DNA from: a virus
Lineage: Duplodnaviria; Heunggongvirae; Uroviricota; Caudoviricetes
Virus record (IMG/VR): IMGVR_UViG_644736362_000006
Length of the DNA stretch: 42,891 nt
Reading direction: 5' to 3' (one strand)
A model generated the notes under the pieces. The model was not told where the DNA came from and searched no databases. It saw nothing but the letters and a program-made list of their open reading frames with translations. Position numbers and translations under genes: made by a program. Below, one piece after another: positions 1 to 22,755 of this stretch; the stretch's first letter is position 1, and each line of letters starts with the position of its first letter.

Positions 1-591
1 TTATACGGCTTTTTTTACCTCCTGTGGTTCCTGTGAAGGTACTACAACACTTTCCTGTTCATGAATCCCATACTTTGACAAAATCTCTTTGCGTTTTTCT
101 TCAGGTAATGCATCTAGCATCATCAACGTCTGAATACTTTGCTGTGAAAATCCTATAAAGCTGTAAAGTTTCTGTTCATTAAATACAAGAGGCATTAACG
201 CCAACAACCCCCCTTTACTTAAAAGTTTCAGTGCCTTGCGTGCTTCATCTGGTTCCAGCTCTTCAATCATATTGATTAAGGTTGTGGTTAATTTGTTTAT
301 CAGTTCCGAAGAATCCTGTTTCTCATTGGCTTGAGCACCAGTATCCGGTGTGGATAACCCCAAGTGCGCAATAACTTGCTCTCGTTCTTTGGTGGGCATC
401 GACATCACATCGTATTCAACAGCTTTCCCCCCCTTGACACCTTCCTTTTTTTGCTTCGTCCAGCCTTGAACATTTGCTCGATAGTGAACACCAGCAACAG
501 ATCCAGGCATACCATCAGCAGCCATAATTTCTTGCGGCGAACACCAAATTGACTTTTCAGTATTATTCTTTTCTATAAAGTTACTTTTCAA
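1..591 (-). CDS. c: Phage Mu repressor c, complete 196 aa (stop codon at 1-3); codon 47 is Gln
   Basis: Minus-strand ORF translation MKSNFIEKNNTEKSIWCSPQEIMAADGMPG... recognised as Mu Repc; gene is divergent from ner as in the Mu left end. Confidence 0.9.
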   Translation of the reverse strand: MKSNFIEKNNTEKSIWCSPQEIMAADGMPGSVAGVHYRANVQGWTKQKKEGVKGGKAVEYDVMSMPTKEREQVIAHLGLSTPDTGAQANEKQDSSELINKLTTTLINMIEELEPDEARKALKLLSKGGLLALMPLVFNEQKLYSFIGFSQQSIQTLMMLDALPEEKRKEILSKYGIHEQESVVVPSQEPQEVKKAV

Positions 592-760: not shown

Positions 761-988
761 ATGTGTTCCAACGAAAAGGCCCGTGATTGGCATCGTGCGG
801 ATGTGATTGCGGGACTTAAGAAAAGAAAGCTCTCTTTATCAGCTCTTTCCCGGCAGTTTGGTTATGCGCCAACTACATTAGCTAATGCGCTAGAACGACA
901 CTGGCCAAAGGGTGAGCAGATTATTGCTAACGCCTTAGAAACTAAACCGGAAGTAATCTGGCCTAGCCGATATCAAGCAGGTGAATAA
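761..988 (+). CDS. ner: Phage Mu Ner, early lytic regulator, 75 aa
   Basis: ORF translation [48 protein letters not shown]... recognised as Mu Ner. Confidence 0.92.
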
Positions 989-989
989 C

Positions 990-2798
990 ATGGAACTTTG
1001 GGTATCACCGAAAGAGTGTGCGAATCTTCCTGGTTTGCCGAAAACATCGGCTGGTGTGATTTATGTTGCTAAAAAGCAAGGATGGCAAAACCGCACTAGA
1101 GCAGGTGTCAAAGGTGGTAAAGCAATTGAATACAATGCGAACTCTTTACCTGTTGAAGCGAAAGCGGCGTTATTGCTGAGACAAGGAGAGATTGAAACAA
1201 GCCTGGGGTATTTTGAAATCGCCCGCCCCACGCTGGAAGCCCATGATTATGATCGTGAGGCACTGTGGAGCAAATGGGATAACGCCAGCGATTCCCAGCG
1301 CAGACTTGCTGAAAAATGGTTGCCTGCGGTTCAGGCTGCAGACGAAATGCTGAACCAGGGGATTTCAACGAAAACGGCTTTTGCGACCGTTGCAGGGCAT
1401 TACCAGGTCAGCGCATCCACTTTGCGGGACAAGTATTACCAGGTACAGAAGTTTGCGAAGCCTGACTGGGCGGCTGCACTTGTTGATGGACGTGGAGCAT
1501 CCCGTCGCAATGTTCACAAAAGTGAATTTGACGAGGATGCCTGGCAGTTTCTGATTGCAGATTATCTGCGACCGGAAAAACCCGCTTTCCGCAAATGTTA
1601 TGAGCGTCTGGAACTGGCAGCCCGCGAGCATGGCTGGAGTATTCCCTCCCGTGCCACGGCCTTTCGCCGGATTCAGCAACTGGACGAGGCAATGGTTGTT
1701 GCCTGTCGTGAAGGTGAACATGCACTGATGCATCTGATACCGGCACAGCAGCGAACTGTGGAACACCTGGACGCCATGCAGTGGATCAACGGCGACGGTT
1801 ATCTGCATAACGTCTTTGTACGCTGGTTTAACGGTGATGTGATCCGTCCGAAAACATGGTTCTGGCAGGATGTGAAAACCCGAAAAATTCTGGGCTGGCG
1901 CTGCGATGTGAGCGAGAACATTGATTCAATTCGCCTCTCGTTCATGGATGTTGTGACTCGCTACGGTATCCCGGAGGATTTTCACATCACCATTGATAAC
2001 ACCCGTGGTGCTGCGAATAAATGGCTGACGGGAGGCGCGCCCAATCGCTACCGCTTTAAGGTAAAAGAGGACGATCCAAAAGGACTGTTTTTACTGATGG
2101 GGGCGAAAATGCACTGGACAAGCGTTGTTGCCGGTAAAGGCTGGGGCCAGGCAAAACCTGTTGAACGTGCTTTCGGTGTTGGTGGGCTTGAGGAATACGT
2201 TGATAAGCATCCGGCACTGGCTGGCGCATATACGGGGCCAAATCCGTAGGCAAAACCTGATAACTATGGCGACCGCGCTGTTGATGCAGAGCTGTTTCTG
2301 AAAACCCTTGCCGAAGGTGTGGCGATGTTCAATGCCAGAACAGGCCGTGAAACAGAAATGTGCGGGGGCAAACTCTCGTTTGATGATGTTTTCGAGCGTG
2401 AATACGCCAGAACGATTGTGCGTAAGCCAACCGAAGAACAAAAACGGATGCTGTTACTGCCTGCCGAGGCGGTGAACGTTTCACGCAAAGGCGAGTTTAC
2501 GCTTAAAGTTGGCGGCTCCCTTAAAGGCGCGAAAAACGTTTATTACAACATGGCATTAATGAATGCCGGCGTGAAAAAAGTTGTGGTCAGGTTTGATCCG
2601 CAGCAGCTACACAGCACGGTTTATTGCTACACCCTGGACGGTCGGTTTATCTGTGAAGCGGAATGTCTGGCACCTGTTGCATTTAATGATGCTGCGGCAG
2701 GCCGTGAATATCGCCGCCGCCAGAAACAACTGAAATCTGCGACGAAAGCAGCCATTAAGGCGCAGAAACAAATGGACGCGCTGGAAGTTGCTGAACTG
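990..2798 (+). pseudogene. A: Phage Mu transposase A, 3'-truncated (A') and interrupted by an in-frame TAG at 2247-2249 (codon 420); lacks the C-terminal domain
   Basis: ATG at 990 gives [32 protein letters not shown]...; the 422-aa and 220-aa track ORFs are in the same frame separated only by TAG; Mu-like reading stops near 2796 where antisense lambda ea22 begins. Confidence 0.85.
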
Positions 2799-3209
2799 CT
2801 GCCGCAGAAACTCTTCCAGGTCACCAGTGCAGTGCTTGATAACAGGAGTCTTCCCAGGATGGCGAACAACAAGAAACTGGTTTCCGTCTTCACGGACTTC
2901 GTTGCTTTCCAGTTTAGCAATACGCTTACTCCCATCCGAGATAACACCTTCGTAATACTCACGCTGCTCGTTGAGTTTTGATTTTGCTGTTTCAAGCTCA
3001 ACACGCAGTTTCCCTACTGTTAGCGCAATATCCTCGTTCTCCTGGTCGCGGCGTTTGATGTATTGCTGGTTTCTTTCCCGTTCATCCAGCAGTTCCAGCA
3101 CAATCGATGGTGTTACCAATTCATGGAAAAGGTCTGCGTCAAATCCCCAGTCGTCATGCATTGCCTGCTCTGCCGCTTCACGCAGTGCCTGAGAGTTAAT
3201 TTCGCTCAC
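2797..3209 (-). CDS. ea22: Lambda Ea22, N-terminal about 138 codons only (3'-truncated at the Mu A' junction)
   Basis: Minus ORF begins [28 protein letters not shown]...; expected stop for a 182-aa Ea22 near 2661 is missing and the ORF runs into antisense Mu A. Confidence 0.7.
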
Positions 3210-3427
3210 TTCGAACCTCTCTGTTTACTGATAAGTTCCAGATCCTCCTGGCAACTTGCACAAGTCCGACAACCCTGAACGACCAGGCGTCTTCGTTCAT
3301 CTATCGGATCGCCACACTCACAACAATGAGTGGCAGATATAGCCTGGTGGTTCAGGCGGCGCATTTTTATTGCTGTGTTGCGCTGTAATTCTTCTATTTC
3401 TGATGCTGAATCAATGATGTCTGCCAT
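3206..3427 (-). CDS. Lambda Orf73, TraR/DksA-like C4 zinc-finger protein, 73 aa
   Basis: ORF with CxxC...CxxC spacing (CCECGDPIDERRRLVVQGCRTCASCQ); position immediately upstream of ea22. Confidence 0.75.
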   Translation of the reverse strand: MADIIDSASEIEELQRNTAIKMRRLNHQAISATHCCECGDPIDERRRLVVQGCRTCASCQEDLELISKQRGSK

Positions 3428-3652
3428 CTTTCATTAATCCCTGAACTGTTGGTTAATACGCTTGAGGGTGAATGCGAATAATAAAAAAGGAGCCTGTAGC
3501 TCCCTGATGATTTTGCTTTTCATGTTCATCGTTCCTTAAAGACGCCGTTTAACATGCCGATTGCCAGGCTTAAATGAGTCGGTGTGAATCCCATCAGCGT
3601 TACCGTTTCGCGGTGCTTCTTCAGTACGCTACGGCAAATGTCATCGACGTTT

Positions 3653-3838
3653 TTATCCGGAAACTGCTGTCTGGCTTTTTTTGATTTCAGAATTAGCCTG
3701 ACGGGCAATGCTGCGAAGGGCGTTTTCCTGCTGAGGTGTCATTGAACAAGTCCCATGTCGGCAAGCATAAGCACACAGAATATGAAGCCCGCTGCCAGAA
3801 AAATGCATTCCGTGGTTGTCATACCTGGTCTCTCTCAT
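3653..3838 (-). CDS. Lambda Orf61
   Basis: 61-aa ORF in expected position and orientation between ea22 and exo. Confidence 0.7.
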   Translation of the reverse strand: MRETRYDNHGMHFSGSGLHILCAYACRHGTCSMTPQQENALRSIARQANSEIKKSQTAVSG

Positions 3839-4010
3839 CTGCTTCTGCTTTCGCCACCATCATTTCCAGCTTTTGTGAAAGGGATGCGGCTAACGTATGA
3901 AATTCTTCGTCTGTTTCTACTGGTATTGGCACAAACCTGATTCCAATTTGAGCAAGGCTATGTGCCATCTCGATACTCGTTCTTAACTCAACAGAAGATG
4001 CTTTGTGCAT
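3819..4010 (-). CDS. Lambda Orf63
   Basis: 63-aa [26 protein letters not shown]... overlapping orf61 and orf60a as in lambda. Confidence 0.75.
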   Translation of the reverse strand: MHKASSVELRTSIEMAHSLAQIGIRFVPIPVETDEEFHTLAASLSQKLEMMVAKAEADERDQV

Positions 4011-4165
4011 ACAGCCCCTCGTTTATTATTTATCTCCTCAGCCAGCCGCTGTGCTTTCAGTGGATTTCGGATAACAGAAAGGCCGGGAAATACCCAGCCT
4101 CGCTTTGTAACGGAGTAGACGAAAGTGATTGCGCCTACCCGGATATTATCGTGAGGATGCGTCAT
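3983..4165 (-). CDS. Lambda Orf60a
   Basis: 60-aa ORF from the second Met of the track ORF, start overlapping the exo stop. Confidence 0.7.
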
Positions 4166-4842
4166 CGCCATTGCTCCCCAAATACAAAACCAATTTCAGC
4201 CAGTGCCTCGTCCATTTTTTCGATGAACTCCGGCACGATCTCGTCAAAACTCGCCATGTACTTTTCATCCCGCTCAATCACGACATAATGCAGGCCTTCA
4301 CGCTTCATACGCGGGTCATAGTTGGCAAAGTACCAGGCATTTTTTCGCGTCACCCACATGCTGTACTGCACCTGGGCCATGTAAGCTGACTTTATGGCCT
4401 CGAAACCACCGAGCCGGAACTTCATGAAATCCCGGGAGGTAAACGGGCATTTCAGTTCAAGGCCGTTGCCGTCACTGCATAAACCATCGGGAGAGCAGGC
4501 GGTACGCATACTTTCGTCGCGATAGATGATCGGGGATTCAGTAACATTCACGCCGGAAGTGAATTCAAACAGGGTTCTGGCGTCGTTCTCGTACTGTTTT
4601 CCCCAGGCCAGTGCTTTAGCGTTAACTTCCGGAGCCACACCGGTGCAAACCTCAGCAAGCAGGGTGTGGAAGTAGGACATTTTCATGTCAGGCCACTTCT
4701 TTCCGGAGCGGGGTTTTGCTATCACGTTGTGAACTTCTGAAGCGGTGATGACGCCGAGCCGTAATTTGTGCCACGCATCATCCCCCTGTTCGACAGCTCT
4801 CACATCGATCCCGGTACGCTGCAGGATAATGTCCGGTGTCAT
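4162..4842 (-). CDS. exo: Lambda exonuclease (Red alpha), 226 aa
   Basis: [68 protein letters not shown]... recognised as lambda Exo. Confidence 0.97.
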
Positions 4843-5624
4843 GCTGCCACCTTCTGCTCTGCGGCTTTCTGTTTCAGGAATCCAAGAGCTTTTACTGCTT
4901 CGGCCTGTGTCAGTTCTGACGATGCACGAATGTCGCGGCGAAATATCTGGGAACAGAGCGGCAATAAGTCGTCATCCCATGTTTTATCCAGGGCGATCAG
5001 CAGAGTGTTAATCTCCTGCATGGTTTCATCGTTAACCGGAGTGATGTCGCGTTCCGGCTGACGTTCTGCAGTGTATGCAGTATTTTCGACAATGCGCTCG
5101 GCTTCATCCTTGTCATAGATACCAGCAAATCCGAAGGCCAGACGGGCACACTGAATCATGGCTTTATGACGTAACATCCGTTTGGGATGCGACTGCCACG
5201 GCCCCGTGATTTCTCTGCCTTCGCGAGTTTTGAATGGTTCGCGGCGGCATTCATCCATCCATTCGGTAACGCAGATCGGATGATTACGGTCCTTGCGGTA
5301 AATCCGGCATGTACAGGATTCATTGTCCTGCTCAAAGTCCATGCCATCAAACTGCTGGTTTTCATTGATGATGCGGGACCAGCCATCAACGCCCACCACC
5401 GGAACGATGCCATTCTGCTTATCAGGAAAGGCGTAAATTTCTTTCGTCCACGGATTAAGGCCGTACTGGTTGGCAACGATCAGTAATGCGATGAACTGCG
5501 CATCGCTGGCATCACCTTTAAATGCCGTCTGGCGAAGAGTGGTGATCAGTTCCTGTGGGTCGACAGAATCCATGCCGACACGTTCAGCCAGCTTCCCAGC
5601 CAGCGTTGCGAGTGCAGTACTCAT
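4839..5624 (-). CDS. bet: Lambda Bet (Red beta) single-strand annealing protein, 261 aa
   Basis: [69 protein letters not shown]... recognised as lambda Bet. Confidence 0.97.
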
Positions 5625-5629
5625 TCGTT

Positions 5630-6046
5630 TTATACCTCTGAATCAATATCAACCTGGTGGTGAGCAATGGTTTCAACCATGTACCGGATGTGTTCTGCCA
5701 TGCGCTCCTGAAACTCAACATCGTCATCAAACGCACGGGTAATGGATTTTTTGCTGGCCCCGTGGCGTTGCAAATGATCGATGCATAGCGATTCAAACAG
5801 GTGCTGGGGCAGGCCTTTTTCCATGTCGTCTGCCAGTTCTGCCTCTTTCTCTTCACGGGCGAGCTGCTGGTAGTGACGCGCCCAGCTCTGAGCCTCAAGA
5901 CGATCCTGAATGTAATAAGCGTTCATGGCTGAACTCCTGAAATAGCTGTGAAAATATCGCCCGCGAAATGCCGGGCTGATTAGGAAAACAGGAAAGGGGG
6001 TTAGTGAATGCTTTTGCTTGATCTCAGTTTCAGTATTAATATCCAT
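5630..6046 (-). CDS. gam: Lambda Gam, RecBCD inhibitor, 138 aa
   Basis: [90 protein letters not shown]... recognised as lambda Gam. Confidence 0.97.
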
Positions 6047-6144
6047 TTTTTATAAGCGTCGACGGCTTCACGAAACATCTTTTCATCGCCAATAAAAGTG
6101 GCGATAGTGAATTTAGTCTGGATAGCCATAAGTGTTTGATCCAT
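6001..6144 (-). CDS. kil: Lambda Kil, 47 aa
   Basis: Internal Met of track ORF 6001..6270 gives [47 protein letters not shown]. Confidence 0.85.
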
Positions 6145-6277
6145 TCTTTGGGACTCCTGGCTGATTAAGTATGTCGATAAGGCGTTTCCATCCGTCACGT
6201 AATTTACGGGTGATTCGTTCAAGTAAAGATTCGGAAGGGCAGCCAGCAACAGGCCACCCTGCAATGGCATATTGCAT
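6113..6277 (-). CDS. cIII: Lambda CIII, 54 aa (below the ORF-track length cutoff)
   Basis: Reverse complement from 6277 reads ATGCAATATGCCATTGCAGGGTGGCCT... = [54 protein letters not shown], stop at 6113-6115. Confidence 0.9.
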   Translation of the reverse strand: MQYAIAGWPVAGCPSESLLERITRKLRDGWKRLIDILNQPGVPKNGSNTYGYPD

Positions 6278-6334
6278 GGTGTGCTCCTTATTTATACATA
6301 ACGAAAAACGCCTCGACCTGCAGGGGGGGGGGGG

Positions 6335-6560
6335 CGCTGAGGTCTGCCTCGTGAAGAAGGTGTTGCTGACTCATACCAGGCCTGAATCGCCCCATCATCC
6401 AGCCAGAAAGTGAGGGAGCCACGGTTGATGAGAGCTTTGTTGTAGGTGGACCAGTTGGTGATTTTGAACTTTTGCTTTGCCACGGAACGGTCTGCGTTGT
6501 CGGGAAGATGCGTGATCTGATCCTTCAACTCAGCAAAAGTTCGATTTATTCAACAAAGCC
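6335..6560 (-). mobile_element. IS903 end fragment: terminal inverted repeat (6543-6560) plus first ~65 codons of the transposase, truncated at the G tail
   Basis: Reverse complement of 6543-6560 is ggctttgttgaataaatc; minus ORF MKDQITHLPDNADRSVAKQKFKITNWSTYNKALINRGSLTFWLDDGAIQAWYE then runs into poly-G. Confidence 0.8.
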
Positions 6561-6620
6561 GCCGTCCCGTCAAGTCAGCGTAATGCTCTGCCAGTGTTAC
6601 AACCAATTAACCAATTCTGA

Positions 6621-7436
6621 TTAGAAAAACTCATCGAGCATCAAATGAAACTGCAATTTATTCATATCAGGATTATCAATACCATATTTTTGAAAAAGCC
6701 GTTTCTGTAATGAAGGAGAAAACTCACCGAGGCAGTTCCATAGGATGGCAAGATCCTGGTATCGGTCTGCGATTCCGACTCGTCCAACATCAATACAACC
6801 TATTAATTTCCCCTCGTCAAAAATAAGGTTATCAAGTGAGAAATCACCATGAGTGACGACTGAATCCGGTGAGAATGGCAAAAGCTTATGCATTTCTTTC
6901 CAGACTTGTTCAACAGGCCAGCCATTACGCTCGTCATCAAAATCACTCGCATCAACCAAACCGTTATTCATTCGTGATTGCGCCTGAGCGAGACGAAATA
7001 CGCGATCGCTGTTAAAAGGACAATTACAAACAGGAATCGAATGCAACCGGCGCAGGAACACTGCCAGCGCATCAACAATATTTTCACCTGAATCAGGATA
7101 TTCTTCTAATACCTGGAATGCTGTTTTCCCGGGGATCGCAGTGGTGAGTAACCATGCATCATCAGGAGTACGGATAAAATGCTTGATGGTCGGAAGAGGC
7201 ATAAATTCCGTCAGCCAGTTTAGTCTGACCATCTCATCTGTAACATCATTGGCAACGCTACCTTTGCCATGTTTCAGAAACAACTCTGGCGCATCGGGCT
7301 TCCCATACAATCGATAGATTGTCGCACCTGATTGCCCGACATTATCGCGAGCCCATTTATACCCATATAAATCAGCATCCATGTTGGAATTTAATCGCGG
7401 CCTCGAGCAAGACGTTTCCCGTTGAATATGGCTCAT
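6621..7436 (-). CDS. aph(3')-Ia: Aminoglycoside 3'-phosphotransferase APH(3')-Ia (kanamycin/neomycin resistance, Tn903 type), 271 aa
   Basis: ORF MSHIQRETSCSRPRLNSNMDADLYGYKWARDNVGQSGATIYRLYGKPDAPELFLKHGKGSVANDVTDEMVRLNWLTEFMPLPTIKHF... recognised as APH(3')-Ia. Confidence 0.97.
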   Translation of the reverse strand: MSHIQRETSCSRPRLNSNMDADLYGYKWARDNVGQSGATIYRLYGKPDAPELFLKHGKGSVANDVTDEMVRLNWLTEFMPLPTIKHFIRTPDDAWLLTTAIPGKTAFQVLEEYPDSGENIVDALAVFLRRLHSIPVCNCPFNSDRVFRLAQAQSRMNNGLVDASDFDDERNGWPVEQVWKEMHKLLPFSPDSVVTHGDFSLDNLIFDEGKLIGCIDVGRVGIADRYQDLAILWNCLGEFSPSLQKRLFQKYGIDNPDMNKLQFHLMLDEFF

Positions 7437-7599
7437 AACACCCCTTGTATTACTGTTTATGTAAGCAGACAGTTTTATTGTTCATGATGATATATTTTTA
7501 TCTTGTGCAATGTAACATCAGAGATTTTGAGACACAACGTGGCTTTCCCCCCCCCCTGCAGGTCGAGTGAAGCGTTATTGGTATGCGGTAAAACCGCAC

Positions 7600-7968
7600 T
7601 CAGGCGGCCTTGATAGTCATATCATCTGAATCAAATATTCCTGATGTATCGATATCGGTAATTCTTATTCCTTCGCTACCATCCATTGGAGGCCATCCTT
7701 CCTGACCATTTCCATCATTCCAGTCGAACTCACACACAACACCATATGCATTTAAGTCGCTTGAAATTGCTATAAGCAGAGCATGTTGCGCCAGCATGAT
7801 TAATACAGCATTTAATACAGAGCCGTGTTTATTGAGTCGGTATTCAGAGTCTGACCAGAAATTATTAATCTGGTGAAGTTTTTCCTCTGTCATTACGTCA
7901 TGGTCGATTTCAATTTCTATTGATGCTTTCCAGTCGTAATCAATGATGTATTTTTTGATGTTTGACAT
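7600..7968 (-). CDS. ea10: Lambda Ea10, 122 aa
   Basis: ORF MSNIKKYIIDYDWKASIEIEIDHDVMTEEKLHQINNFWSDSEYRLNKHGSVLNAVLIMLAQ... recognised as lambda Ea10. Confidence 0.9.
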   Translation of the reverse strand: MSNIKKYIIDYDWKASIEIEIDHDVMTEEKLHQINNFWSDSEYRLNKHGSVLNAVLIMLAQHALLIAISSDLNAYGVVCEFDWNDGNGQEGWPPMDGSEGIRITDIDTSGIFDSDDMTIKAA

Positions 7969-8150
7969 CTGTTCATATCCTCACAGATAAAAAATCGCCC
8001 TCACACTGGAGGGCAAAGAAGATTTCCAATAATCAGAACAAGTCGGCTCCTGTTTAGTTACGAGCGACATTGCTCCGTGTATTCACTCGTTGGAATGAAT
8101 ACACAGTGCAGTGTTTATTCTGTTATTTATGCCAAAAATAAAGGCCACTA

Positions 8151-8351
8151 TCAGGCAGCTTTGTTGTTCTGTTTACCAAGTTCTCTGGCAATCATTGCCG
8201 TCGTTCGTATTGCCCATTTATCGACATATTTCCCATCTTCCATTACAGGAAACATTTCTTCAGGCTTAACCATGCATTCCGATTGCAGCTTGCATCCATT
8301 GCATCGCTTGAATTGTCCACACCATTGATTTTTATCAATAGTCGTAGTCAT
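8151..8351 (-). CDS. ral: Lambda Ral, restriction alleviation, 66 aa
   Basis: ORF MTTTIDKNQWCGQFKRCNGCKLQSECMVKPEEMFPVMEDGKYVDKWAIRTTAMIARELGKQNNKAA. Confidence 0.92.
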   Translation of the reverse strand: MTTTIDKNQWCGQFKRCNGCKLQSECMVKPEEMFPVMEDGKYVDKWAIRTTAMIARELGKQNNKAA

Positions 8352-8545
8352 ACGGATAGTCCTGGTATTGTTCCATCACATCCTGAGGATGCTCTTCGAA
8401 CTCTTCAAATTCTTCTTCCATATATCACCTTAAATAGTGGATTGCGGTAGTAAAGATTGTGCCTGTCTTTTAACCACATCAGGCTCGGTGGTTCTCGTGT
8501 ACCCCTACAGCGAGAAATCGGATAAACTATTACAACCCCTACAGT

Positions 8546-9100
8546 TTGATGAGTATAGAAATGGATCCACTCGTTATTCTCGGACGAGTGTTCAGTAATG
8601 AACCTCTGGAGAGAACCATGTATATGATCGTTATCTGGGTTGGACTTCTGCTTTTAAGCCCAGATAACTGGCCTGAATATGTTAATGAGAGAATCGGTAT
8701 TCCTCATGTGTGGCATGTTTTCGTCTTTGCTCTTGCATTTTCGCTAGCAATTAATGTGCATCGATTATCAGCTATTGCCAGCGCCAGATATAAGCGATTT
8801 AAGCTAAGAAAACGCATTAAGATGCAAAACGATAAAGTGCGATCAGTAATTCAAAACCTTACAGAAGAGCAATCTATGGTTTTGTGCGCAGCCCTTAATG
8901 AAGGCAGGAAGTATGTGGTTACATCAAAACAATTCCCATACATTAGTGAGTTGATTGAGCTTGGTGTGTTGAACAAAACTTTTTCCCGATGGAATGGGAA
9001 GCATATATTATTCCCTATTGAGGATATTTACTGGACTGAATTAGTTGCCAGCTATGATCCATATAATATTGAGATAAAGCCAAGGCCAATATCTAAGTAA
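8546..9100 (+). CDS. sieB: Lambda SieB, superinfection exclusion protein
   Basis: ORF MMSIEMDPLVILGRVFSNEPLERTMYMIVIWVGLLLLSPDNWPEYVNERIGIPHVWHVFVFALAF..., on the strand opposite N as in lambda. Confidence 0.9.
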   Translation: MMSIEMDPLVILGRVFSNEPLERTMYMIVIWVGLLLLSPDNWPEYVNERIGIPHVWHVFVFALAFSLAINVHRLSAIASARYKRFKLRKRIKMQNDKVRSVIQNLTEEQSMVLCAALNEGRKYVVTSKQFPYISELIELGVLNKTFSRWNGKHILFPIEDIYWTELVASYDPYNIEIKPRPISK

Positions 9101-9424
9101 CTAGATAAGAGGAATCGATTTTCCCTTAATTTTCTGGCGTCCACTGCATGTTATGCCGCGTTCGCCAGGCTTGCTGTACCATGTGCGCTGATTCTTGCGC
9201 TCAATACGTTGCAGGTTGCTTTCAATCTGTTTGTGGTATTCAGCCAGCACTGTAAGGTCTATCGGATTTAGTGCGCTTTCTACTCGTGATTTCGGTTTGC
9301 GATTCAGCGAGAGAATAGGGCGGTTAACTGGTTTTGCGCTTACCCCAACCAACAGGGGATTTGCTGCTTTCCATTGAGCCTGTTTCTCTGCGCGACGTTC
9401 GCGGCGGCGTGTTTGTGCATCCAT
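9101..9424 (-). CDS. N: Lambda N antiterminator, 107 aa
   Basis: Internal Met of track ORF gives MDAQTRRRERRAEKQAQWKAANPLLVGVSAKPVNRPILSLNRKPKSRVESALNPIDLTVLAEYHKQIESNLQRIERKNQRTWYSKPGERGITCSGRQKIKGKSIPLI. Confidence 0.95.
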   Translation of the reverse strand: MDAQTRRRERRAEKQAQWKAANPLLVGVSAKPVNRPILSLNRKPKSRVESALNPIDLTVLAEYHKQIESNLQRIERKNQRTWYSKPGERGITCSGRQKIKGKSIPLI

Positions 9425-9574
9425 CTGGATTCTCCTGTCAGTTAGCTTTGGTGGTGTGTGGCAGTTGTAGTCCTGAACGAAAACCCCCCGCGATTGGCAC
9501 ATTGGCAGCTAATCCGGAATCGCACTTACGGCCAATGCTTCGTTTCGTATCACACACCCCAAAGCCTTCTGCTT

Positions 9575-9614
9575 TGAATGCTGCCCTTCTTCAGGGCTTA
9601 ATTTTTAAGAGCGT
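9575..9614 (-). promoter_or_regulatory. nutL (boxA and boxB) N-utilisation site
   Basis: Minus strand contains boxB hairpin gccctgaagaagggc (9578-9594) and boxA cgctcttaa (9606-9614). Confidence 0.85.
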
Positions 9615-9645
9615 CACCTTCATGGTGGTCAGTGCGTCCTGCTGA

Positions 9646-9715
9646 TGTGCTCAGTATCACCGCCAGTGGTATTTATGTCAACACCGCCAGAGATAATTTA
9701 TCACCGCAGATGGTT
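9646..9715 (-). promoter_or_regulatory. pL promoter with operators oL1 (9655-9671), oL2 (9679-9695), oL3 (9699-9715)
   Basis: 17-bp operator sequences tatcaccgccagtggta, caacaccgccagagata, tatcaccgcagatggtt; -35 TTGACA and -10 GATACT on minus strand. Confidence 0.9.
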
Positions 9716-9888
9716 ATCTGTATGTTTTTTATATGAATTTATTTTTTGCAGGGGGGCATTGTTTGGTAGGTGAGAGATCTGAATTGCTATGTTTAGTGAG
9801 TTGTATCTATTTATTTTTCAATAAATACAATTGGTTATGTGTTTTGGGGGCGATCGTGAGGCAAAGAAAACCCGGCGCTGAGGCCGGG

Positions 9889-10323
9889 TTATTCTTGTTC
9901 TCTGGTCAAATTATATAGTTGGAAAACAAGGATGCATATATGAATGAACGATGCAGAGGCAATGCCGATGGCGATAGTGGGTATCATGTAGCCGCTTATG
10001 CTGGAAAGAAGCAATAACCCGCAGAAAAACAAAGCTCCAAGCTCAACAAAACTAAGGGCATAGACAATAACTACCGATGTCATATACCCATACTCTCTAA
10101 TCTTGGCCAGTCGGCGCGTTCTGCTTCCGATTAGAAACGTCAAGGCAGCAATCAGGATTGCAATCATGGTTCCTGCATATGATGACAATGTCGCCCCAAG
10201 ACCATCTCTATGAGCTGAAAAAGAAACACCAGGAATGTAGTGGCGGAAAAGGAGATAGCAAATGCTTACGATAACGTAAGGAATTATTACTATGTAAACA
10301 CCAGGCATGATTCTGTTCCGCAT
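9889..10323 (-). CDS. rexB: Lambda RexB, 144 aa membrane protein
   Basis: ORF MRNRIMPGVYIVIIPYVIVSICYLLFRHYIPGVSFSAHRDGLGATLSSYAGTMIAILIAALTF... Confidence 0.95.
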   Translation of the reverse strand: MRNRIMPGVYIVIIPYVIVSICYLLFRHYIPGVSFSAHRDGLGATLSSYAGTMIAILIAALTFLIGSRTRRLAKIREYGYMTSVVIVYALSFVELGALFFCGLLLLSSISGYMIPTIAIGIASASFIHICILVFQLYNLTREQE

Positions 10324-10338
10324 AATTACTCCTGATAA

Positions 10339-11178
10339 TTAATCCTTAACTTTGCCCACCTGCCTTTTAAAACATTCCAGTATATCACTTTTCATTCTTG
10401 CGTAGCAATATGCCATCTCTTCAGCTATCTCAGCATTGGTGACCTTGTTCAGAGGCGCTGAGAGATGGCCTTTTTCTGATAGATAATGTTCTGTTAAAAT
10501 ATCTCCGGCCTCATCTTTTGCCCGCAGGCTAATGTCTGAAAATTGAGGTGACGGGTTAAAAATAATATCCTTGGCAACCTTTTTTATATCCCTTTTAAAT
10601 TTTGGCTTAATGACTATATCCAATGAGTCAAAAAGCTCCCCTTCAATATCTGTTGCCCCTAAGACCTTTAATATATCGCCAAATACAGGTAGCTTGGCTT
10701 CTACCTTCACCGTTGTTCGGCCGATGAAATGCATATGCATAACATCGTCTTTGGTGGTTCCCCTCATCAGTGGCTCTATCTGAACGCGCTCTCCACTGCT
10801 TAATGACATTCCTTTCCCGATTAAAAAATCTGTCAGATCGGATGTGGTCGGCCCGAAAACAGTTCTGGCAAAACCAATGGTGTCGCCTTCAACAAACAAA
10901 AAAGATGGGAATCCCAATGATTCGTCATCTGCGAGGCTGTTCTTAATATCTTCAACTGAAGCTTTAGAGCGATTTATCTTCTGAACCAGACTCTTGTCAT
11001 TTGTTTTGGTAAAGAGAAAAGTTTTTCCATCGATTTTATGAATATACAAATAATTGGAGCCAACCTGCAGGTGATGATTATCAGCCAGCAGAGAATTAAG
11101 GAAAACAGACAGGTTTATTGAGCGCTTATCTTTCCCTTTATTTTTGCTGCGGTAAGTCGCATAAAAACCATTCTTCAT
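10339..11178 (-). CDS. rexA: Lambda RexA, 279 aa
   Basis: ORF MKNGFYATYRSKNKGKDKRSINLSVFLNSLLADNHHLQVGSNYLYIHKIDGKTFLFTKTNDKSLVQKINRSKASVEDIKN... Confidence 0.95.
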   Translation of the reverse strand: MKNGFYATYRSKNKGKDKRSINLSVFLNSLLADNHHLQVGSNYLYIHKIDGKTFLFTKTNDKSLVQKINRSKASVEDIKNSLADDESLGFPSFLFVEGDTIGFARTVFGPTTSDLTDFLIGKGMSLSSGERVQIEPLMRGTTKDDVMHMHFIGRTTVKVEAKLPVFGDILKVLGATDIEGELFDSLDIVIKPKFKRDIKKVAKDIIFNPSPQFSDISLRAKDEAGDILTEHYLSEKGHLSAPLNKVTNAEIAEEMAYCYARMKSDILECFKRQVGKVKD

Positions 11179-11290
11179 AATTCAATCCATTTACTATGTT
11201 ATGTTCTGAGGGGAGTGAAAATTCCCCTAATTCGATGAAGATTCTTGCTCAATTGTTATCAGCTATGCGCCGACCAGAACACCTTGCCGA

Positions 11291-12007
<717 letters not shown>

Positions 12008-12014
12008 TTAAATC

Positions 12015-12090
12015 TATCACCGCAAGGGATAAATATCTAACACCGTGCGTGTTGACTATTTTACCTCTGGCGGTGATAATGGTTGCATGT
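12015..12090. promoter_or_regulatory. oR3-oR2-oR1 operators with divergent pRM and pR promoters
   Basis: tatcaccgcaagggata (12015-12031), taacaccgtgcgtgttg (12038-12054), tacctctggcggtgata (12062-12078); pR -35 ttgact and -10 gataat. Confidence 0.92.
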
Positions 12091-12095
12091 ACTAA

Positions 12096-12305
<210 letters not shown>

Positions 12306-12312
12306 ATAACCC

Positions 12313-12344
12313 CGCTCTTACACATTCCAGCCCTGAAAAAGGGC
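12313..12344 (+). promoter_or_regulatory. nutR (boxA cgctctta, boxB gccctgaaaaagggc)
   Basis: boxA at 12313-12320 and boxB hairpin at 12330-12344 immediately downstream of cro. Confidence 0.88.
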
Positions 12345-12404
12345 ATCAAATTAAACCACACCTATGGTGTATGCATTTATTTGCATACATTCAATCAATT
12401 GTTA

Positions 12405-12445
12405 TCTAAGGAAATACTTACATATGGTTCGTGCAAACAAACGCA
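12405..12445 (-). promoter_or_regulatory. pRE promoter with CII binding site (TTGC-N6-TTGC) overlapping the cII start
   Basis: Minus strand ttgcgtttgtttgc at 12432-12445, inside the first cII codons. Confidence 0.7.
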
Positions 12446-12717
12446 ACGAGGCTCTACGAATCGAGAGTGCGTTGCTTAACAAAATCGCAATGCTTGGAAC
12501 TGAGAAGACAGCGGAAGCTGTGGGCGTTGATAAGTCGCAGATCAGCAGGTGGAAGAGGGACTGGATTCCAAAGTTCTCAATGCTGCTTGCTGTTCTTGAA
12601 TGGGGGGTCGTTGACGACGACATGGCTCGATTGGCGCGACAAGTTGCTGCGATTCTCACCAATAAAAAACGCCCGGCGGCAACCGAGCGTTCTGAACAAA
12701 TCCAGATGGAGTTCTGA
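12424..12717 (+). CDS. cII: Lambda CII transcriptional activator, 97 aa
   Basis: Internal Met of track ORF gives MVRANKRNEALRIESALLNKIAMLGTEKTAEAVGVDKSQISRWKRDWIPKFSMLLAVLEWGVVDDDMARLARQVAAILTNKKRPAATERSEQIQMEF. Confidence 0.95.
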   Translation: MVRANKRNEALRIESALLNKIAMLGTEKTAEAVGVDKSQISRWKRDWIPKFSMLLAVLEWGVVDDDMARLARQVAAILTNKKRPAATERSEQIQMEF

Positions 12718-12739
12718 GGTCATTACTGGATCTATCAAC
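12663..12739 (-). ncRNA. oop: oop antisense RNA (about 77 nt) ending at the to terminator
   Basis: Minus-strand GC hairpin followed by T run (reverse complement of aataaaaaacgcccggcggcaacc at 12661-12684), located between cII 3' end and O start; ends placed from remembered lambda coordinates. Confidence 0.6.
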
Positions 12740-12749
12740 AGGAGTCATT

Positions 12750-13649
12750 ATGACAAATACAGCAAAAATACTCAACTTCGGCAGAGGTAACTTTGCCGGA
12801 CAGGAGCGTAATGTGGCAGATCTCGATGATGGTTACGCCAGACTATCAAATATGCTGCTTGAGGCTTATTCGGGCGCAGATCTGACCAAGCGACAGTTTA
12901 AAGTGCTGCTTGCCATTCTGCGTAAAACCTATGGGTGGAATAAACCAATGGACAGAATCACCGATTCTCAACTTAGCGAGATTACAAAGTTACCTGTCAA
13001 ACGGTGCAATGAAGCCAAGTTAGAACTCGTCAGAATGAATATTATCAAGCAGCAAGGCGGCATGTTTGGACCAAATAAAAACATCTCAGAATGGTGCATC
13101 CCTCAAAACGAGGGAAAATCCCCTAAAACGAGGGATAAAACATCCCTCAAATTGGGGGATTGCTATCCCTCAAAACAGGGGGACACAAAAGACACTATTA
13201 CAAAAGAAAAAAGAAAAGATTATTCGTCAGAGAATTCTGGCGAATCCTCTGACCAGCCAGAAAACGACCTTTCTGTGGTGAAACCGGATGCTGCAATTCA
13301 GAGCGGCAGCAAGTGGGGGACAGCAGAAGACCTGACCGCCGCAGAGTGGATGTTTGACATGGTGAAGACTATCGCACCATCAGCCAGAAAACCGAATTTT
13401 GCTGGGTGGGCTAACGATATCCGCCTGATGCGTGAACGTGACGGACGTAACCACCGCGACATGTGTGTGCTGTTCCGCTGGGCATGCCAGGACAACTTCT
13501 GGTCCGGTAACGTGCTGAGCCCGGCCAAACTCCGCGATAAGTGGACCCAACTCGAAATCAACCGTAACAAGCAACAGGCAGGCGTGACAGCCAGCAAACC
13601 AAAACTCGACCTGACAAACACAGACTGGATTTACGGGGTGGATCTATGA
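12750..13649 (+). CDS. O: Lambda O replication initiator, 299 aa
   Basis: ORF MTNTAKILNFGRGNFAGQERNVADLDDGYARLSNMLLEAYSGADLTKRQFKVLLAILRKTYGWNKPMDRITDSQLSEITKLPVKRCNEAK... Confidence 0.97.
   Translation: MTNTAKILNFGRGNFAGQERNVADLDDGYARLSNMLLEAYSGADLTKRQFKVLLAILRKTYGWNKPMDRITDSQLSEITKLPVKRCNEAKLELVRMNIIKQQGGMFGPNKNISEWCIPQNEGKSPKTRDKTSLKLGDCYPSKQGDTKDTITKEKRKDYSSENSGESSDQPENDLSVVKPDAAIQSGSKWGTAEDLTAAEWMFDMVKTIAPSARKPNFAGWANDIRLMRERDGRNHRDMCVLFRWACQDNFWSGNVLSPAKLRDKWTQLEINRNKQQAGVTASKPKLDLTNTDWIYGVDL
13098..13230. other. ori lambda: four ~19-bp O-binding iterons followed by an AT-rich unwinding region
   Basis: Repeats catccctcaaaacgaggga / aatcccctaaaacgagggat / catccctcaaattgggggat / tatccctcaaaacaggggga, then A-rich tract aaaagaaaaaagaaaag. 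Confidence 0.9.
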
Positions 13650-14347
13650 AAAACATCGCCGCACAGATGGTTAACTTTGACCGTGAGCAGATGCGTCGGA
13701 TCGCCAACAACATGCCGGAACAGTACGACGAAAAGCCGCAGGTACAGCAGGTAGCGCAGATCATCAACGGTGTGTTCAGCCAGTTACTGGCAACTTTCCC
13801 GGCGAGCCTGGCTAACCGTGACCAGAACGAAGTGAACGAAATCCGTCGCCAGTGGGTTCTGGCTTTTCGGGAAAACGGGATCACCACGATGGAACAGGTT
13901 AACGCAGGAATGCGCGTAGCCCGTCGGCAGAATCGACCATTTCTGCCATCACCCGGGCAGTTTGTTGCATGGTGCCGGGAAGAAGCATCCGTTACCGCCG
14001 GACTGCCAAACGTCAGCGAGCTGGTTGATATGGTTTACGAGTATTGCCGGAAGCGAGGCCTGTATCCGGATGCGGAGTCTTATCCGTGGAAATCAAACGC
14101 GCACTACTGGCTGGTTACCAACCTGTATCAGAACATGCGGGCCAATGCGCTTACTGATGCGGAATTACGCCGTAAGGCCGCAGATGAGCTTGTCCATATG
14201 ACTGCGAGAATTAACCGTGGTGAGGCGATCCCTGAACCAGTAAAACAACTTCCTGTCATGGGCGGTAGACCTCTAAATCGTGCACAGGCTCTGGCGAAGA
14301 TCGCAGAAATCAAAGCTAAGTTCGGACTGAAAGGAGCAAGTGTATGA
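13646..14347 (+). CDS. P: Lambda P helicase loader, 233 aa
   Basis: ORF MKNIAAQMVNFDREQMRRIANNMPEQYDEKPQVQQVAQIINGVFSQLLATFPASLANRDQNEVNEIRRQWVLAFRENGITTMEQVN... Confidence 0.97.
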   Translation: MKNIAAQMVNFDREQMRRIANNMPEQYDEKPQVQQVAQIINGVFSQLLATFPASLANRDQNEVNEIRRQWVLAFRENGITTMEQVNAGMRVARRQNRPFLPSPGQFVAWCREEASVTAGLPNVSELVDMVYEYCRKRGLYPDAESYPWKSNAHYWLVTNLYQNMRANALTDAELRRKAADELVHMTARINRGEAIPEPVKQLPVMGGRPLNRAQALAKIAEIKAKFGLKGASV

Positions 14348-14634
14348 CGGGCAAAGAGGCAATTATTCATTACCTGGGGACGCATAATAGCTTCTGTGCG
14401 CCGGACGTTGCCGCGCTAACAGGCGCAACAGTAACCAGCATAAATCAGGCCGCGGCTAAAATGGCACGGGCAGGTCTTCTGGTTATCGAAGGTAAGGTCT
14501 GGCGAACGGTGTATTACCGGTTTGCTACCAGGGAAGAACGGGAAGGAAAGATGAGCACGAACCTGGTTTTTAAGGAGTGTCGCCAGAGTGCCGCGATGAA
14601 ACGGGTATTGGCGGTATATGGAGTTAAAAGATGA
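14344..14634 (+). CDS. ren: Lambda Ren, 96 aa
   Basis: ORF MTGKEAIIHYLGTHNSFCAPDVAALTGATVTSINQAAAKMARAGLLVIEGKVWRTVYYRFATREEREGK... Confidence 0.92.
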   Translation: MTGKEAIIHYLGTHNSFCAPDVAALTGATVTSINQAAAKMARAGLLVIEGKVWRTVYYRFATREEREGKMSTNLVFKECRQSAAMKRVLAVYGVKR

Positions 14635-14707
14635 CCATCTACATTACTGAGCTAATAACAGGCCTGCTGGTAATCGCAGGCCTTTTTATTTGGGGGAGAG
14701 GGAAGTC

Positions 14708-15148
14708 ATGAAAAAACTAACCTTTGAAATTCGATCTCCAGCACATCAGCAAAACGCTATTCACGCAGTACAGCAAATCCTTCCAGACCCAACCAAACCA
14801 ATCGTAGTAACCATTCAGGAACGCAACCGCAGCTTAGACCAAAACAGGAAGCTATGGGCCTGCTTAGGTGACGTCTCTCGTCAGGTTGAATGGCATGGTC
14901 GCTGGCTGGATGCAGAAAGCTGGAAGTGTGTGTTTACCGCAGCATTAAAGCAGCAGGATGTTGTTCCTAACCTTGCCGGGAATGGCTTTGTGGTAATAGG
15001 CCAGTCAACCAGCAGGATGCGTGTAGGCGAATTTGCGGAGCTATTAGAGCTTATACAGGCATTCGGTACAGAGCGTGGCGTTAAGTGGTCAGACGAAGCG
15101 AGACTGGCTCTGGAGTGGAAAGCGAGATGGGGAGACAGGGCTGCATGA
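14708..15148 (+). CDS. ninB: Lambda NinB (Orf recombination mediator), 146 aa
   Basis: Internal Met gives MKKLTFEIRSPAHQQNAIHAVQQILPDPTKPIVVTIQERNRSLDQNRKLWACLGDV... Confidence 0.92.
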   Translation: MKKLTFEIRSPAHQQNAIHAVQQILPDPTKPIVVTIQERNRSLDQNRKLWACLGDVSRQVEWHGRWLDAESWKCVFTAALKQQDVVPNLAGNGFVVIGQSTSRMRVGEFAELLELIQAFGTERGVKWSDEARLALEWKARWGDRAA

Positions 15149-16017
15149 TAAATGTCGTTAGTTTCTCCGGTGGCAGGACGTCAGCATATTTGCTCTGGCT
15201 AATGGAGCAAAAGCGACGGGCAGGTAAAGACGTGCATTACGTTTTCATGGATACAGGTTGTGAACATCCAATGACATATCGGTTTGTCAGGGAAGTTGTG
15301 AAGTTCTGGGATATACCGCTCACCGTATTGCAGGTTGATATCAACCCGGAGCTTGGACAGCCAAATGGTTATACGGTATGGGAACCAAAGGATATTCAGA
15401 CGCGAATGCCTGTTCTGAAGCCATTTATCGATATGGTAAAGAAATATGGCACTCCATACGTCGGCGGCGCGTTCTGCACTGACAGATTAAAACTCGTTCC
15501 CTTCACCAAATACTGTGATGACCATTTCGGGCGAGGGAATTACACCACGTGGATTGGCATCAGAGCTGATGAACCGAAGCGGCTAAAGCCAAAGCCTGGA
15601 ATCAGATATCTTGCTGAACTGTCAGACTTTGAGAAGGAAGATATCCTCGCATGGTGGAAGCAACAACCATTCGATTTGCAAATACCGGAACATCTCGGTA
15701 ACTGCATATTCTGCATTAAAAAATCAACGCAAAAAATCGGACTTGCCTGCAAAGATGAGGAGGGATTGCAGCGTGTTTTTAATGAGGTCATCACGGGATC
15801 CCATGTGCGTGACGGACATCGGGAAACGCCAAAGGAGATTATGTACCGAGGAAGAATGTCGCTGGACGGTATCGCGAAAATGTATTCAGAAAATGATTAT
15901 CAAGCCCTGTATCAGGACATGGTACGAGCTAAAAGATTCGATACCGGCTCTTGTTCTGAGTCATGCGAAATATTTGGAGGGCAGCTTGATTTCGACTTCG
16001 GGAGGGAAGCTGCATGA
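15145..16017 (+). CDS. ninC: Lambda NinC, 290 aa
   Basis: Internal Met gives [65 protein letters not shown]... Confidence 0.92.
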
Positions 16018-16187
16018 TGCGATGTTATCGGTGCGGTGAATGCAAAGAAGATAACCGCTTCCGACCAAATCAACCTTACTGGAATCGATGGTGTCTCCGG
16101 TGTGAAAGAACACCAACAGGGGTGTTACCACTACCGCAGGAAAAGGAGGACGTGTGGCGAGACAGCGACGAAGTATCACCGACATAA
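16014..16187 (+). CDS. ninD: Lambda NinD, 57 aa cysteine-rich protein (below ORF-track cutoff)
   Basis: Manual translation from ATG at 16014: [57 protein letters not shown], stop at 16185-16187. Confidence 0.8.
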
Positions 16188-16336
16188 TCTGCGAAAACTG
16201 CAAATACCTTCCAACGAAACGCACCAGAAATAAACCCAAGCCAATCCCAAAAGAATCTGACGTAAAAACCTTCAACTACACGGCTCACCTGTGGGATATC
16301 CGGTGGCTAAGACGTCGTGCGAGGAAAACAAGGTGA
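16154..16336 (+). CDS. ninE: Lambda NinE, 60 aa
   Basis: [63 protein letters not shown]. Confidence 0.85.
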
Positions 16337-16503
16337 TTGACCAAAATCGAAGTTACGAACAAGAAAGCGTCGAGCGAGCTTTAACGTGCGCTAACTGCGG
16401 TCAGAAGCTGCATGTGCTGGAAGTTCACGTGTGTGAGCACTGCTGCGCAGAACTGATGAGCGATCCGAATAGCTCGATGCACGAGGAAGAAGATGATGGC
16501 TAA
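16333..16503 (+). CDS. ninF: Lambda NinF; start uncertain (GTG at 16333 overlapping the ninE stop, or upstream ATG at 16291)
   Basis: Cysteine-rich ORF ...[55 protein letters not shown]. Confidence 0.7.
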
Positions 16504-17107: not shown

Positions 17108-17310
17108 CGTTCTCAGTAAAAACCATTCCAGACATGCTCGTTGAAGCATACGGAAATCAGACAGAAGTAGCACGCAGACTGAAATGTAGTCGCGGTACGG
17201 TCAGAAAATACGTTGATGATAAAGACGGGAAAATGCACGCCATCGTCAACGACGTTCTCATGGTTCATCGCGGATGGAGTGAAAGAGATGCGCTATTACG
17301 AAAAAATTGA
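17104..17310 (+). CDS. ninH: Lambda NinH, 68 aa
   Basis: [71 protein letters not shown]. Confidence 0.9.
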
Positions 17311-18573: not shown

Positions 18574-18615
18574 CAGCATGATTGCCACGGATGGCAACAT
18601 ATTAACGGCATGATA

Positions 18616-18644
18616 TTGACTTATTGAATAAAATTGGGTAAATT
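18616..18644 (+). promoter_or_regulatory. pR' late promoter (-35 ttgact, 17-bp spacer, -10 taaatt) with overlapping qut site
   Basis: ttgact at 18616-18621 and taaatt at 18639-18644, directly downstream of Q. Confidence 0.8.
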
Positions 18645-18651
18645 TGACTCA

Positions 18652-22750: not shown

Positions 22751-22755
22751 GAACA

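What the first reader, a model, noticed from the sequence alone, without database searches (positions are those of the whole stretch)
2247..2249. In-frame amber (TAG) codon inside Mu transposase A
The two track ORFs 981..2249 and 2319..2981 are in the same frame and separated only by TAG at 2247-2249. Protein-like translation continues straight through (…[25 protein letters not shown]…). This is the signature of a nonsense allele, as used for conditionally transposition-defective Mu derivatives, rather than a natural gene boundary. With the 3' truncation it makes A doubly defective unless an amber suppressor is present.
Basis: partly seen in the sequence, partly recalled or inferred. Interest (0 to 1): 0.45.

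Follow-up and report, generated by a model that had tools for sequence, protein, structure and literature searches.

The report
Engineered amber stop in Mu transposase
The in-frame TAG is a real single-base nonsense mutation (Gln420 to amber) in the phage Mu transposase gene carried by a laboratory lambda-placMu gene-fusion prophage in E. coli strain BW2952; it is a known kind of deliberate disabling allele and is ordinary.

Summary
Confirmed and explained; nothing new. TAG at 2247-2249 is codon 420 of Mu gene A (ATG at 990). Over the window's 2,808 bases of Mu DNA, the only difference from reference Mu is C->T at 2247 (CAG Gln -> TAG). Mu, an E. coli W Mu-like prophage, D108 and a Yersinia Mu-like phage all have Gln there.

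The window is a kanamycin-resistant lambda-placMu prophage: Mu c/ner/A', then lambda ea22 through cos to J/lom with a Tn903 kan cassette between cIII and ssb, then 'lacA. It is identical to CP001396.1, E. coli BW2952 = MC4100 malG::lambda-placMu55. Four other sequencing runs and one metagenome contig of the same lineage also carry TAG, so it is not a sequencing error.

The amber leaves a 419-aa fragment. It keeps the DNA-binding domains and the DDE triad but loses the end of the catalytic core, domain II-beta and domain III-alpha, which transpososome assembly needs. That makes the fusion prophage immobile in a suppressor-free host.

The 3' truncation after Gln606 removes only domain III-beta, which is dispensable in vitro.

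That the allele is the classical Aam1093 rests on my memory of the lambda-placMu papers, which I could not read.

The parts
1..591 (-). Mu c repressor gene (196 codons, TTG start at 589-591). Codon 47 (window 451-453) is Gln, which fits the temperature-sensitive cts62 allele.
   Evidence: Identical to AF083977 Mu_1. The only difference from the E. coli W Mu-like prophage repressor is R47->Q. That cts62 = R47Q is recalled, not tested.
761..988 (+). Mu ner gene (75 codons), immediately upstream of A.
   Evidence: 100% identical to Mu_2.
990..2249 (+). Mu A codons 1-419 plus the amber stop. The translated product is a 419-aa, 47.4-kDa fragment carrying domains I-alpha/beta/gamma and the DDE residues D269, D336 and E392.
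   Evidence: The exact 419-aa product is called on CP001396.1 and in five other datasets.
2247..2249 (+). The amber codon: TAG in place of wild-type CAG (Gln420). It is a C->T transition at window 2247 = Mu nt 2585 = BW2952 genome position 4133784.
   Evidence: Gln is present in four natural relatives.
2250..2807 (+). Mu A codons 421-606 (end of II-alpha, II-beta, III-alpha). Untranslated unless the amber is suppressed.
2799..2808 (.). Mu/lambda novel joint with 10-bp microhomology CTGCCGCAGA (Mu 3137-3146 / lambda 29985-29994). It truncates A after Gln606 and so deletes domain III-beta.
2808..2981 (+). 57 codons of lambda ea22 antisense plus TGA, which would form the C-terminal tail of a suppressed A' fusion (663 aa in total).
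6317..7562 (-). Tn903 aph(3')-Ia kanamycin-resistance cassette with G/C tails and PstI sites. It sits in the lambda XhoI site between cIII and ea10(ssb) and marks the kan-carrying lambda-placMu series.
   Evidence: Pfam APH.
2809..42565 (+). Lambda genome permuted through cos: lambda 29985-48502 then 1-19998, interrupted by the kan cassette. cI857 and Sam7 are absent.
42566..42891 (-). 5' part of lacA, the start of the lacA-lacY-lacZ block that continues beyond the window towards the Mu S end and the malG fusion joint.
   Evidence: I recognised the sequence as lacA; no database comparison was run on it. The layout agrees with the BW2952 genotype in PMC3708739.

Best explanation
The TAG is a laboratory nonsense allele, Gln420->amber, of the phage Mu transposase gene A. 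It sits in the Mu c-end segment of the gene-fusion phage lambda-placMu55, integrated in malG of E. coli BW2952, and is most likely the classical Aam1093 allele.

Mechanism. In a suppressor-free host, translation of A stops after residue 419. The fragment keeps the enhancer- and end-binding domains and the DDE triad. It lacks the last ~54 residues of the catalytic core, the II-beta barrel and domain III-alpha, which are needed to assemble the transposase tetramer and bind target DNA. The prophage, flanked by Mu ends, therefore cannot transpose again and the malG-lacZ fusion stays put.

The phage can be inserted in the first place either with Mu A (and B) supplied from a helper phage or in an amber-suppressor host. 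supE would restore Gln and give back the parental A' protein.

Shown here: the base change, its uniqueness, the construct, the strain, the domain loss and the confirmation by independent reads. Inferred: loss of transposition, which follows from published domain requirements. Recalled only: that lambda-placMu55 was built with Aam1093 and is used with helper lambda-pMu507.
For: Only one base differs from reference Mu in 2,808 nt, and it converts CAG to TAG at codon 420. Gln420 and a full-length ORF are present in Mu, the E. coli W prophage, D108 and Yersinia phage YpM_3.

The window has the lambda-placMu architecture with kan between cIII and ssb. It is identical to CP001396.1 with 0 mismatches in 8,249 nt. 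The gene lies at 4132527-4133786, and the two published BW2952 sequencing errors are reproduced with all four flanking distances.

BW2952 = MC4100 malG::lambda-placMu55 and is KanR (PMC3708739). TAG is present in the DRR002031/50/57/64 assemblies and in JGI 3300001149. Re-sequencing of a descendant listed no error in A.

Pfam shows DDE_2 cut at 163/221 and Mu-transpos_C lost. Domain roles come from PMC3362531 and PMC5357137. Aam1093 is an integration-defective A amber kept in Su+ hosts (PMC3325207). A CAG->TAG change is a GC->AT transition, the kind of change I recall chemical mutagens giving in classical amber collections. A random substitution gives an in-frame amber in only 1.0% of cases.
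Against: The original lambda-placMu papers (Bremer et al. 1984, 1985) and the BW2952 genome paper are not in the held library, so 'lambda-placMu55 carries Aam1093' is from memory. No published nucleotide position for Aam1093 was found. No independent lambda-placMu lysogen at another insertion site, and no sequenced Mu Aam1093 phage, was found to show the same base change outside the BW2952 lineage. Transposition deficiency was not measured.
Confidence: 0.88

Rival explanations
1. A spontaneous nonsense mutation arose in the lambda-placMu stock or in the BW2952 lineage after construction, perhaps favoured because it stabilises the fusion. On this view it is not a deliberately introduced Aam allele.
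For: All datasets with the TAG share the same malG junction, so they are one lineage. No independent copy of the phage could be examined. The design of lambda-placMu55 could not be read in the library.
Against: It is the only change in 2.8 kb of Mu DNA, and only 1.0% of random substitutions would give an in-frame amber. Amber specifically is what the classical suppressible Mu A alleles are (PMC3325207). From memory, the '5' members of the lambda-placMu series are the Aam1093 derivatives.
Confidence: 0.09
2. A sequencing or assembly error in the deposited genome. The real sequence would be CAG and A' would be an uninterrupted 663-codon fusion ORF.
For: The BW2952 deposit does contain errors, two of them inside this prophage.
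Against: Those errors are single-base insertions in intergenic DNA, and none is in A. Four separately assembled sequencing runs and one metagenome contig all read TAG. Strains mapped to BW2952 in PMC4986956 reported no variant in A.
Confidence: 0.01
3. A natural feature: either a real gene boundary giving two separate proteins, or programmed stop-codon read-through in Mu-like transposases.
For: An ORF with a GTG start at 2319 follows in the same frame.
Against: Wild-type Mu and its relatives have CAG and a single 662-663-codon gene. The wild-type 41-mer hits Mu and SfMu while the TAG 41-mer hits nothing in phages, plasmids or 5,426 E. coli genomes. The stop falls inside the DDE_2 domain. None of the in-frame start codons downstream has an obvious Shine-Dalgarno sequence before it.
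Confidence: 0.01

Closest known systems
Mu Aam1093, the classical amber allele of Mu transposase gene A
   Same: It is an amber codon in A, in a Mu cts62 background, used to block integration and transposition unless a suppressor or helper is present (PMC3325207: Aam1093 is integration-defective and kept in a Su+ strain). The GC->AT transition is typical of mutagen-derived ambers.
   Different: Identity with Aam1093 is not demonstrated here. No published coordinate for Aam1093 was found, and the assignment rests on my recollection of the lambda-placMu55 genotype.
lambda-placMu fusion phages (Bremer, Silhavy, Weinstock 1984/1985), kan-carrying members lambda-placMu53/55 and 9/15
   Same: The Mu c end carries c(ts), ner and A. 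The whole lambda genome lies between Mu ends. kan lies between cIII and ssb, and lac genes abut the far end. The prophage is inserted in malG of an MC4100 derivative (PMC3708739).
   Different: The Mu S end and lacZ joint lie outside the window, so operon-fusion versus protein-fusion type was not checked. The A gene here is truncated at codon 606 by an illegitimate Mu/lambda joint, and the right lambda arm carries a DLP12-derived patch.
Conditionally transposition-defective Mu d derivatives with amber mutations in the transposition genes (for example Mu d1-8 of Hughes and Roth; recalled)
   Same: The same strategy: a nonsense mutation makes a Mu-ended fusion element immobile in sup0 hosts and mobile in suppressor hosts.
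   Different: Those are Mu d(Ap lac) elements used mainly in Salmonella. Their alleles were not compared here.
MuA 77-605, the C-terminally truncated transposase used for the transpososome crystal structure (PDB 4FCY)
   Same: The Mu/lambda joint leaves residues 1-606, almost exactly the boundary of the crystallised, catalytically competent protein (PMC5357137).
   Different: Here the truncated protein would carry a 57-aa unrelated tail. Because of the amber, it is not made at all in a sup0 host.

Membership tests
Phage Mu transposase MuA (Pfam DDE_2 family) | Domain order HTH_Tnp_Mu_1, HTH_Tnp_Mu_2, DDE_2, Mu-transpos_C | tested here: met
   all four are found across the two halves. DDE_2 is split by the stop at profile position 163/221.
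Phage Mu transposase MuA (Pfam DDE_2 family) | Catalytic triad D269, D336, E392 | tested here: met
   all three are present, upstream of the amber. Residue numbers are from PMC3362531.
Phage Mu transposase MuA (Pfam DDE_2 family) | Uninterrupted full-length ORF of about 663 codons, including domain III-beta | tested here: not met
   stop at codon 420, and Mu sequence ends after codon 606. It is a disabled derivative of the gene, not an intact member.
Amber (suppressible nonsense) allele | TAG derived by one base change from a sense codon of the wild-type gene, with the frame otherwise intact | tested here: met
   CAG->TAG, with no other change in 2,808 nt. The frame stays open to 2979.
Amber (suppressible nonsense) allele | Function restored in supE/supF hosts and absent in sup0 hosts | not testable with these tools
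   This needs genetics. The window holds no tRNA gene, and the published MC4100 genotype lists no suppressor (PMC3708739, PMC6071977).
Mu Aam1093 specifically | The same nucleotide change as in the reference Aam1093 phage | not testable with these tools
   No Aam1093 sequence or coordinate exists in the collections or library.
lambda-placMu (kan) prophage | Mu c end (c, ner, A) joined to lambda, the lambda genome permuted through cos, kan between cIII and ssb, and lac genes at the far end | tested here: met
lambda-placMu (kan) prophage | Mu attL at the host junction | tested here: met
   Mu nt 1 (TGTATTGATTCACTTG...) abuts host DNA 337 bases left of the window in CP001396.1. The upstream neighbours are BPD_transp_1 (malG remnant), an MFS sugar transporter, PsiE, YjbT and YjbH.
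lambda-placMu (kan) prophage | Mu S end next to promoterless lacZ | not tested
   It lies beyond the right end of the window.

The most novel reading that the evidence does not exclude
The window may give the first explicit nucleotide-level definition of the widely used Aam1093 allele (MuA Q420am, Mu nt 2585 C->T). When the cts62 repressor is inactivated, the stable 47-kDa N-terminal fragment, which has all the DNA-binding domains and the DDE triad but no assembly domain, could occupy Mu ends and operators as a dominant-negative factor and not as a simple null.
Probability: 0.2. Interest if true: 0.15.

Novelty: already known. Interest (0 to 1): 0.07.

Why it matters
It matters only for bookkeeping. 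It explains why annotation pipelines split Mu A into two ORFs in BW2952 and MC4100-derived reference genomes, and it shows that the split is a deliberate genetic-tool feature, not a pseudogene of biological interest. It gives a concrete coordinate for the disabling mutation (Q420am, BW2952 position 4133784). It also clarifies that the C-terminal truncation at residue 606 is not the inactivating lesion. Anyone using BW2952 as a mapping reference should treat the whole 4.13-4.18 Mb insert as an engineered construct.

Tried and rejected
1. I tried to read Bremer et al. 1984/1985, Lin et al. 1992 and the BW2952 genome paper, and none is held. The Aam1093 attribution therefore stays a recollection.
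2. I searched the library for 'Aam1093', 'am1093' and placMu55/15/53/pMu507. This gave only strain-table mentions and one functional description of Aam1093, with no coordinates.
3. I looked for the Mu/lambda joint or the TAG allele in 5,426 complete E. coli genomes, phages, plasmids, GTDB representatives, JGI metagenomes and IMG/VR. The only hit was one IMG/VR contig, which turned out to be the same malG insertion. No independent lysogen was available to separate 'allele of the phage stock' from 'mutation in this lineage'.
4. NC_012759 is not in the annotated collections. Identity with BW2952 was established through the published error table and through the look-up of encoding contigs.
5. I considered downstream re-initiation producing a C-terminal fragment. 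The in-frame starts at 2319, 2325 and further on have no convincing Shine-Dalgarno sequence, and such a fragment would lack the DDE triad, so I rejected this as functionally irrelevant.
6. The protein is 100% identical to MuA apart from the stop, and solved structures exist.

Full report
**Observation**

The triplet at window 2247-2249 is TAG. It lies in the frame that starts at the ATG at 990, directly after the ner gene (761-988). Translating 990-2984 gives one internal stop at codon 420 and a terminal TGA at 2979-2981. Pfam places HTH_Tnp_Mu_1, HTH_Tnp_Mu_2 and the first 163 of 221 positions of DDE_2 in the upstream piece. The rest of DDE_2 and Mu-transpos_C fall in the downstream piece. 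One gene is therefore cut by one stop.

**Comparison with wild type**

Megablast against phage records matches window 600-2808 to phage Mu (AF083977, NC_000929) at essentially 100%. A base-by-base comparison of window 1-2808 with Mu 339-3146 finds exactly one difference. Window 2247 is T where Mu nt 2585 is C, which turns CAG (Gln420) into TAG.

Mu, the Mu-like prophage of E. coli W, D108 and Yersinia phage vB_YpM_3 all have Gln at this position and uninterrupted 662-663-codon genes. A 41-mer centred on the T, chosen so that every 28-base seed must include it, hits nothing in 5,426 complete E. coli genomes, 50,697 phage records or 72,556 plasmids. The wild-type 41-mer hits Mu and SfMu at 100%. 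Of the 8,424 possible single substitutions in this Mu segment, only 86 (1.0%) create an in-frame amber in A.

**What the window is**

- Mu identity stops at 2808. From 2799 the sequence is lambda, starting at lambda 29985 inside ea22 on the opposite strand. The 10 shared bases CTGCCGCAGA at the joint indicate illegitimate recombination and not a cloning site.
- Lambda then runs to cos (window 22566) and on from lambda 1 to 19998 (window 42565).
- A 1,246-bp Tn903 aph(3')-Ia cassette with G/C tails and PstI sites sits in the lambda XhoI site between cIII and ea10/ssb, at window 6317-7562.
- The last 326 bases are the 5' part of lacA on the minus strand (my reading of the sequence).
- cI857 and Sam7 are absent.

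This layout is a kanamycin-resistant lambda-placMu prophage, a lambda that integrates through Mu ends to make lacZ fusions.

**Which strain**

A paper that re-sequenced a BW2952 descendant lists two single-base errors of the deposited BW2952 genome inside its prophage, at 4139083 (extra T) and 4168988 (extra C) (PMC3708739 Table S1). The window has T at 7546 and C at 37451, exactly 29,905 bases apart. All four quoted distances to flanking genes (54, 164, 10, 291) are reproduced.

The look-up of the exact 419-aa product then returned CP001396.1 (GCA_000022345.1) at 4132527-4133786. That locus is identical to the window over 8,249 bases. BW2952 is MC4100 malG::lambda-placMu55 Phi(malG::lacZ) and is kanamycin resistant. 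To the left of the window, Mu nt 1 abuts the malG remnant, followed by an MFS sugar transporter, PsiE, YjbT and YjbH.

**Is the TAG real?**

The same 419-aa product and the same TAG occur in Logan assemblies of four separate runs (DRR002031, 002050, 002057, 002064) and in a JGI/IMG-VR contig (3300001149). All share the malG::Mu junction, so they are independent reads of the same lineage. They probably include the BW2952 chemostat isolates deposited in DDBJ as DRA000563, although that link is not proven. The published error list for BW2952 has no entry in A. A sequencing error is excluded.

**Consequence for the protein**

Published domain maps give the following roles (PMC3362531):

| Subdomain | Role |
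|---|---|
| II-alpha | contains the DDE triad (D269, D336, E392) |
| II-beta and III-alpha | non-specific DNA binding and structural transitions |
| III-beta | interaction with MuB and ClpX |

[quoted passage not shown] The crystallised transpososome protein is MuA 77-605.

The amber fragment (419 aa, 47.4 kDa) keeps the DNA-binding domains and the triad. It lacks the end of II-alpha, all of II-beta and III-alpha. It should therefore bind Mu DNA but be unable to assemble or catalyse transposition; this is inference from the published requirements.

The truncation at Gln606 removes only III-beta. Deleting that domain reduced but did not abolish activity in vivo, and this construct has no MuB gene to interact with anyway. 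With supE suppression the product would be the parental A' (606 Mu residues plus a 57-residue lambda-antisense tail, 663 aa), which I infer is the working transposase of the A+ lambda-placMu phages.

**Allele name**

Aam1093 is documented in the library as an integration-defective A amber maintained in a Su+ strain (PMC3325207). That lambda-placMu55 is the Aam1093 derivative of lambda-placMu53, normally delivered with helper lambda-pMu507, is my recollection of Bremer, Silhavy and Weinstock (1985). The paper is not held, and no coordinate for Aam1093 was found.

Because every TAG-bearing dataset belongs to one lineage, a spontaneous mutation in that lineage cannot be formally excluded. I give it about 9%. 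The 1% chance figure, the amber identity and the known design of the phage series all argue for the engineered allele.

**Host suppressor**

The window contains no tRNA gene. The MC4100 genotype as published lists no suppressor (PMC3708739 Table 4; PMC6071977). The rest of the genome could not be read here.

**Verdict**

This is a known laboratory tool allele in a known laboratory strain. It has no novelty and very low interest beyond annotation hygiene.

Noticed in passing
window 451-453 (minus strand, c repressor codon 47): Codon 47 of the Mu repressor is CAA (Gln). The natural Mu-like prophage of E. coli W has Arg there as its only difference in 196 residues. This fits the temperature-sensitive cts62 allele (R47Q, from memory). 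The reference Mu genome AF083977 also has Gln47, so the reference itself looks like a cts62 phage.
   Followed up: partly
window 2799-2808: The Mu A / lambda ea22 joint has a 10-bp microhomology (CTGCCGCAGA) and no restriction site. The phage's Mu-lambda fusion therefore arose by illegitimate recombination in vivo. It cuts MuA after Gln606, the III-alpha/III-beta domain boundary.
   Followed up: yes
window 21049-22550 (lambda 46985-48486): A cluster of 29 SNPs relative to reference lambda. The segment is 99.9% identical to the DLP12 cryptic prophage region ybcV-ybcW-ylcI of E. coli K-12, against 98.3% to lambda. The phage's right arm was therefore patched by recombination with DLP12.
   Followed up: yes
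window 7546 and 37451: These two bases (an extra T at the kan cassette edge, and an extra C ten bases after lambda K that frameshifts tail gene I) are published sequencing errors of the BW2952 deposit (PMC3708739 Table S1). The apparent truncation of lambda I in this window is an artefact.
   Followed up: yes
window 6317-7562: The Tn903 aph(3')-Ia cassette has homopolymer G/C tails, PstI sites and SalI/XhoI hybrid ends (pUC4K-type cassette). It lies in the lambda XhoI site between cIII and ea10(ssb).
   Followed up: yes
window 22703 (lambda 138), 36832 (lambda 14266): There is a one-base deletion and a one-base insertion relative to J02459, plus scattered SNPs at lambda 53, 10028, 10236, 11842, 13252, 16900, 31016, 34934 and 45618. 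These are probably lambda stock polymorphisms or errors in the old reference. None was examined further.
   Followed up: no
L008 / L012 (JGI 3300001149, IMGVR_UViG_3300001149_000060): A 'metagenome' and 'viral' contig in public collections is simply the malG::lambda-placMu55 junction of the BW2952 laboratory strain. An engineered construct is catalogued there as an uncultivated viral genome.
   Followed up: partly
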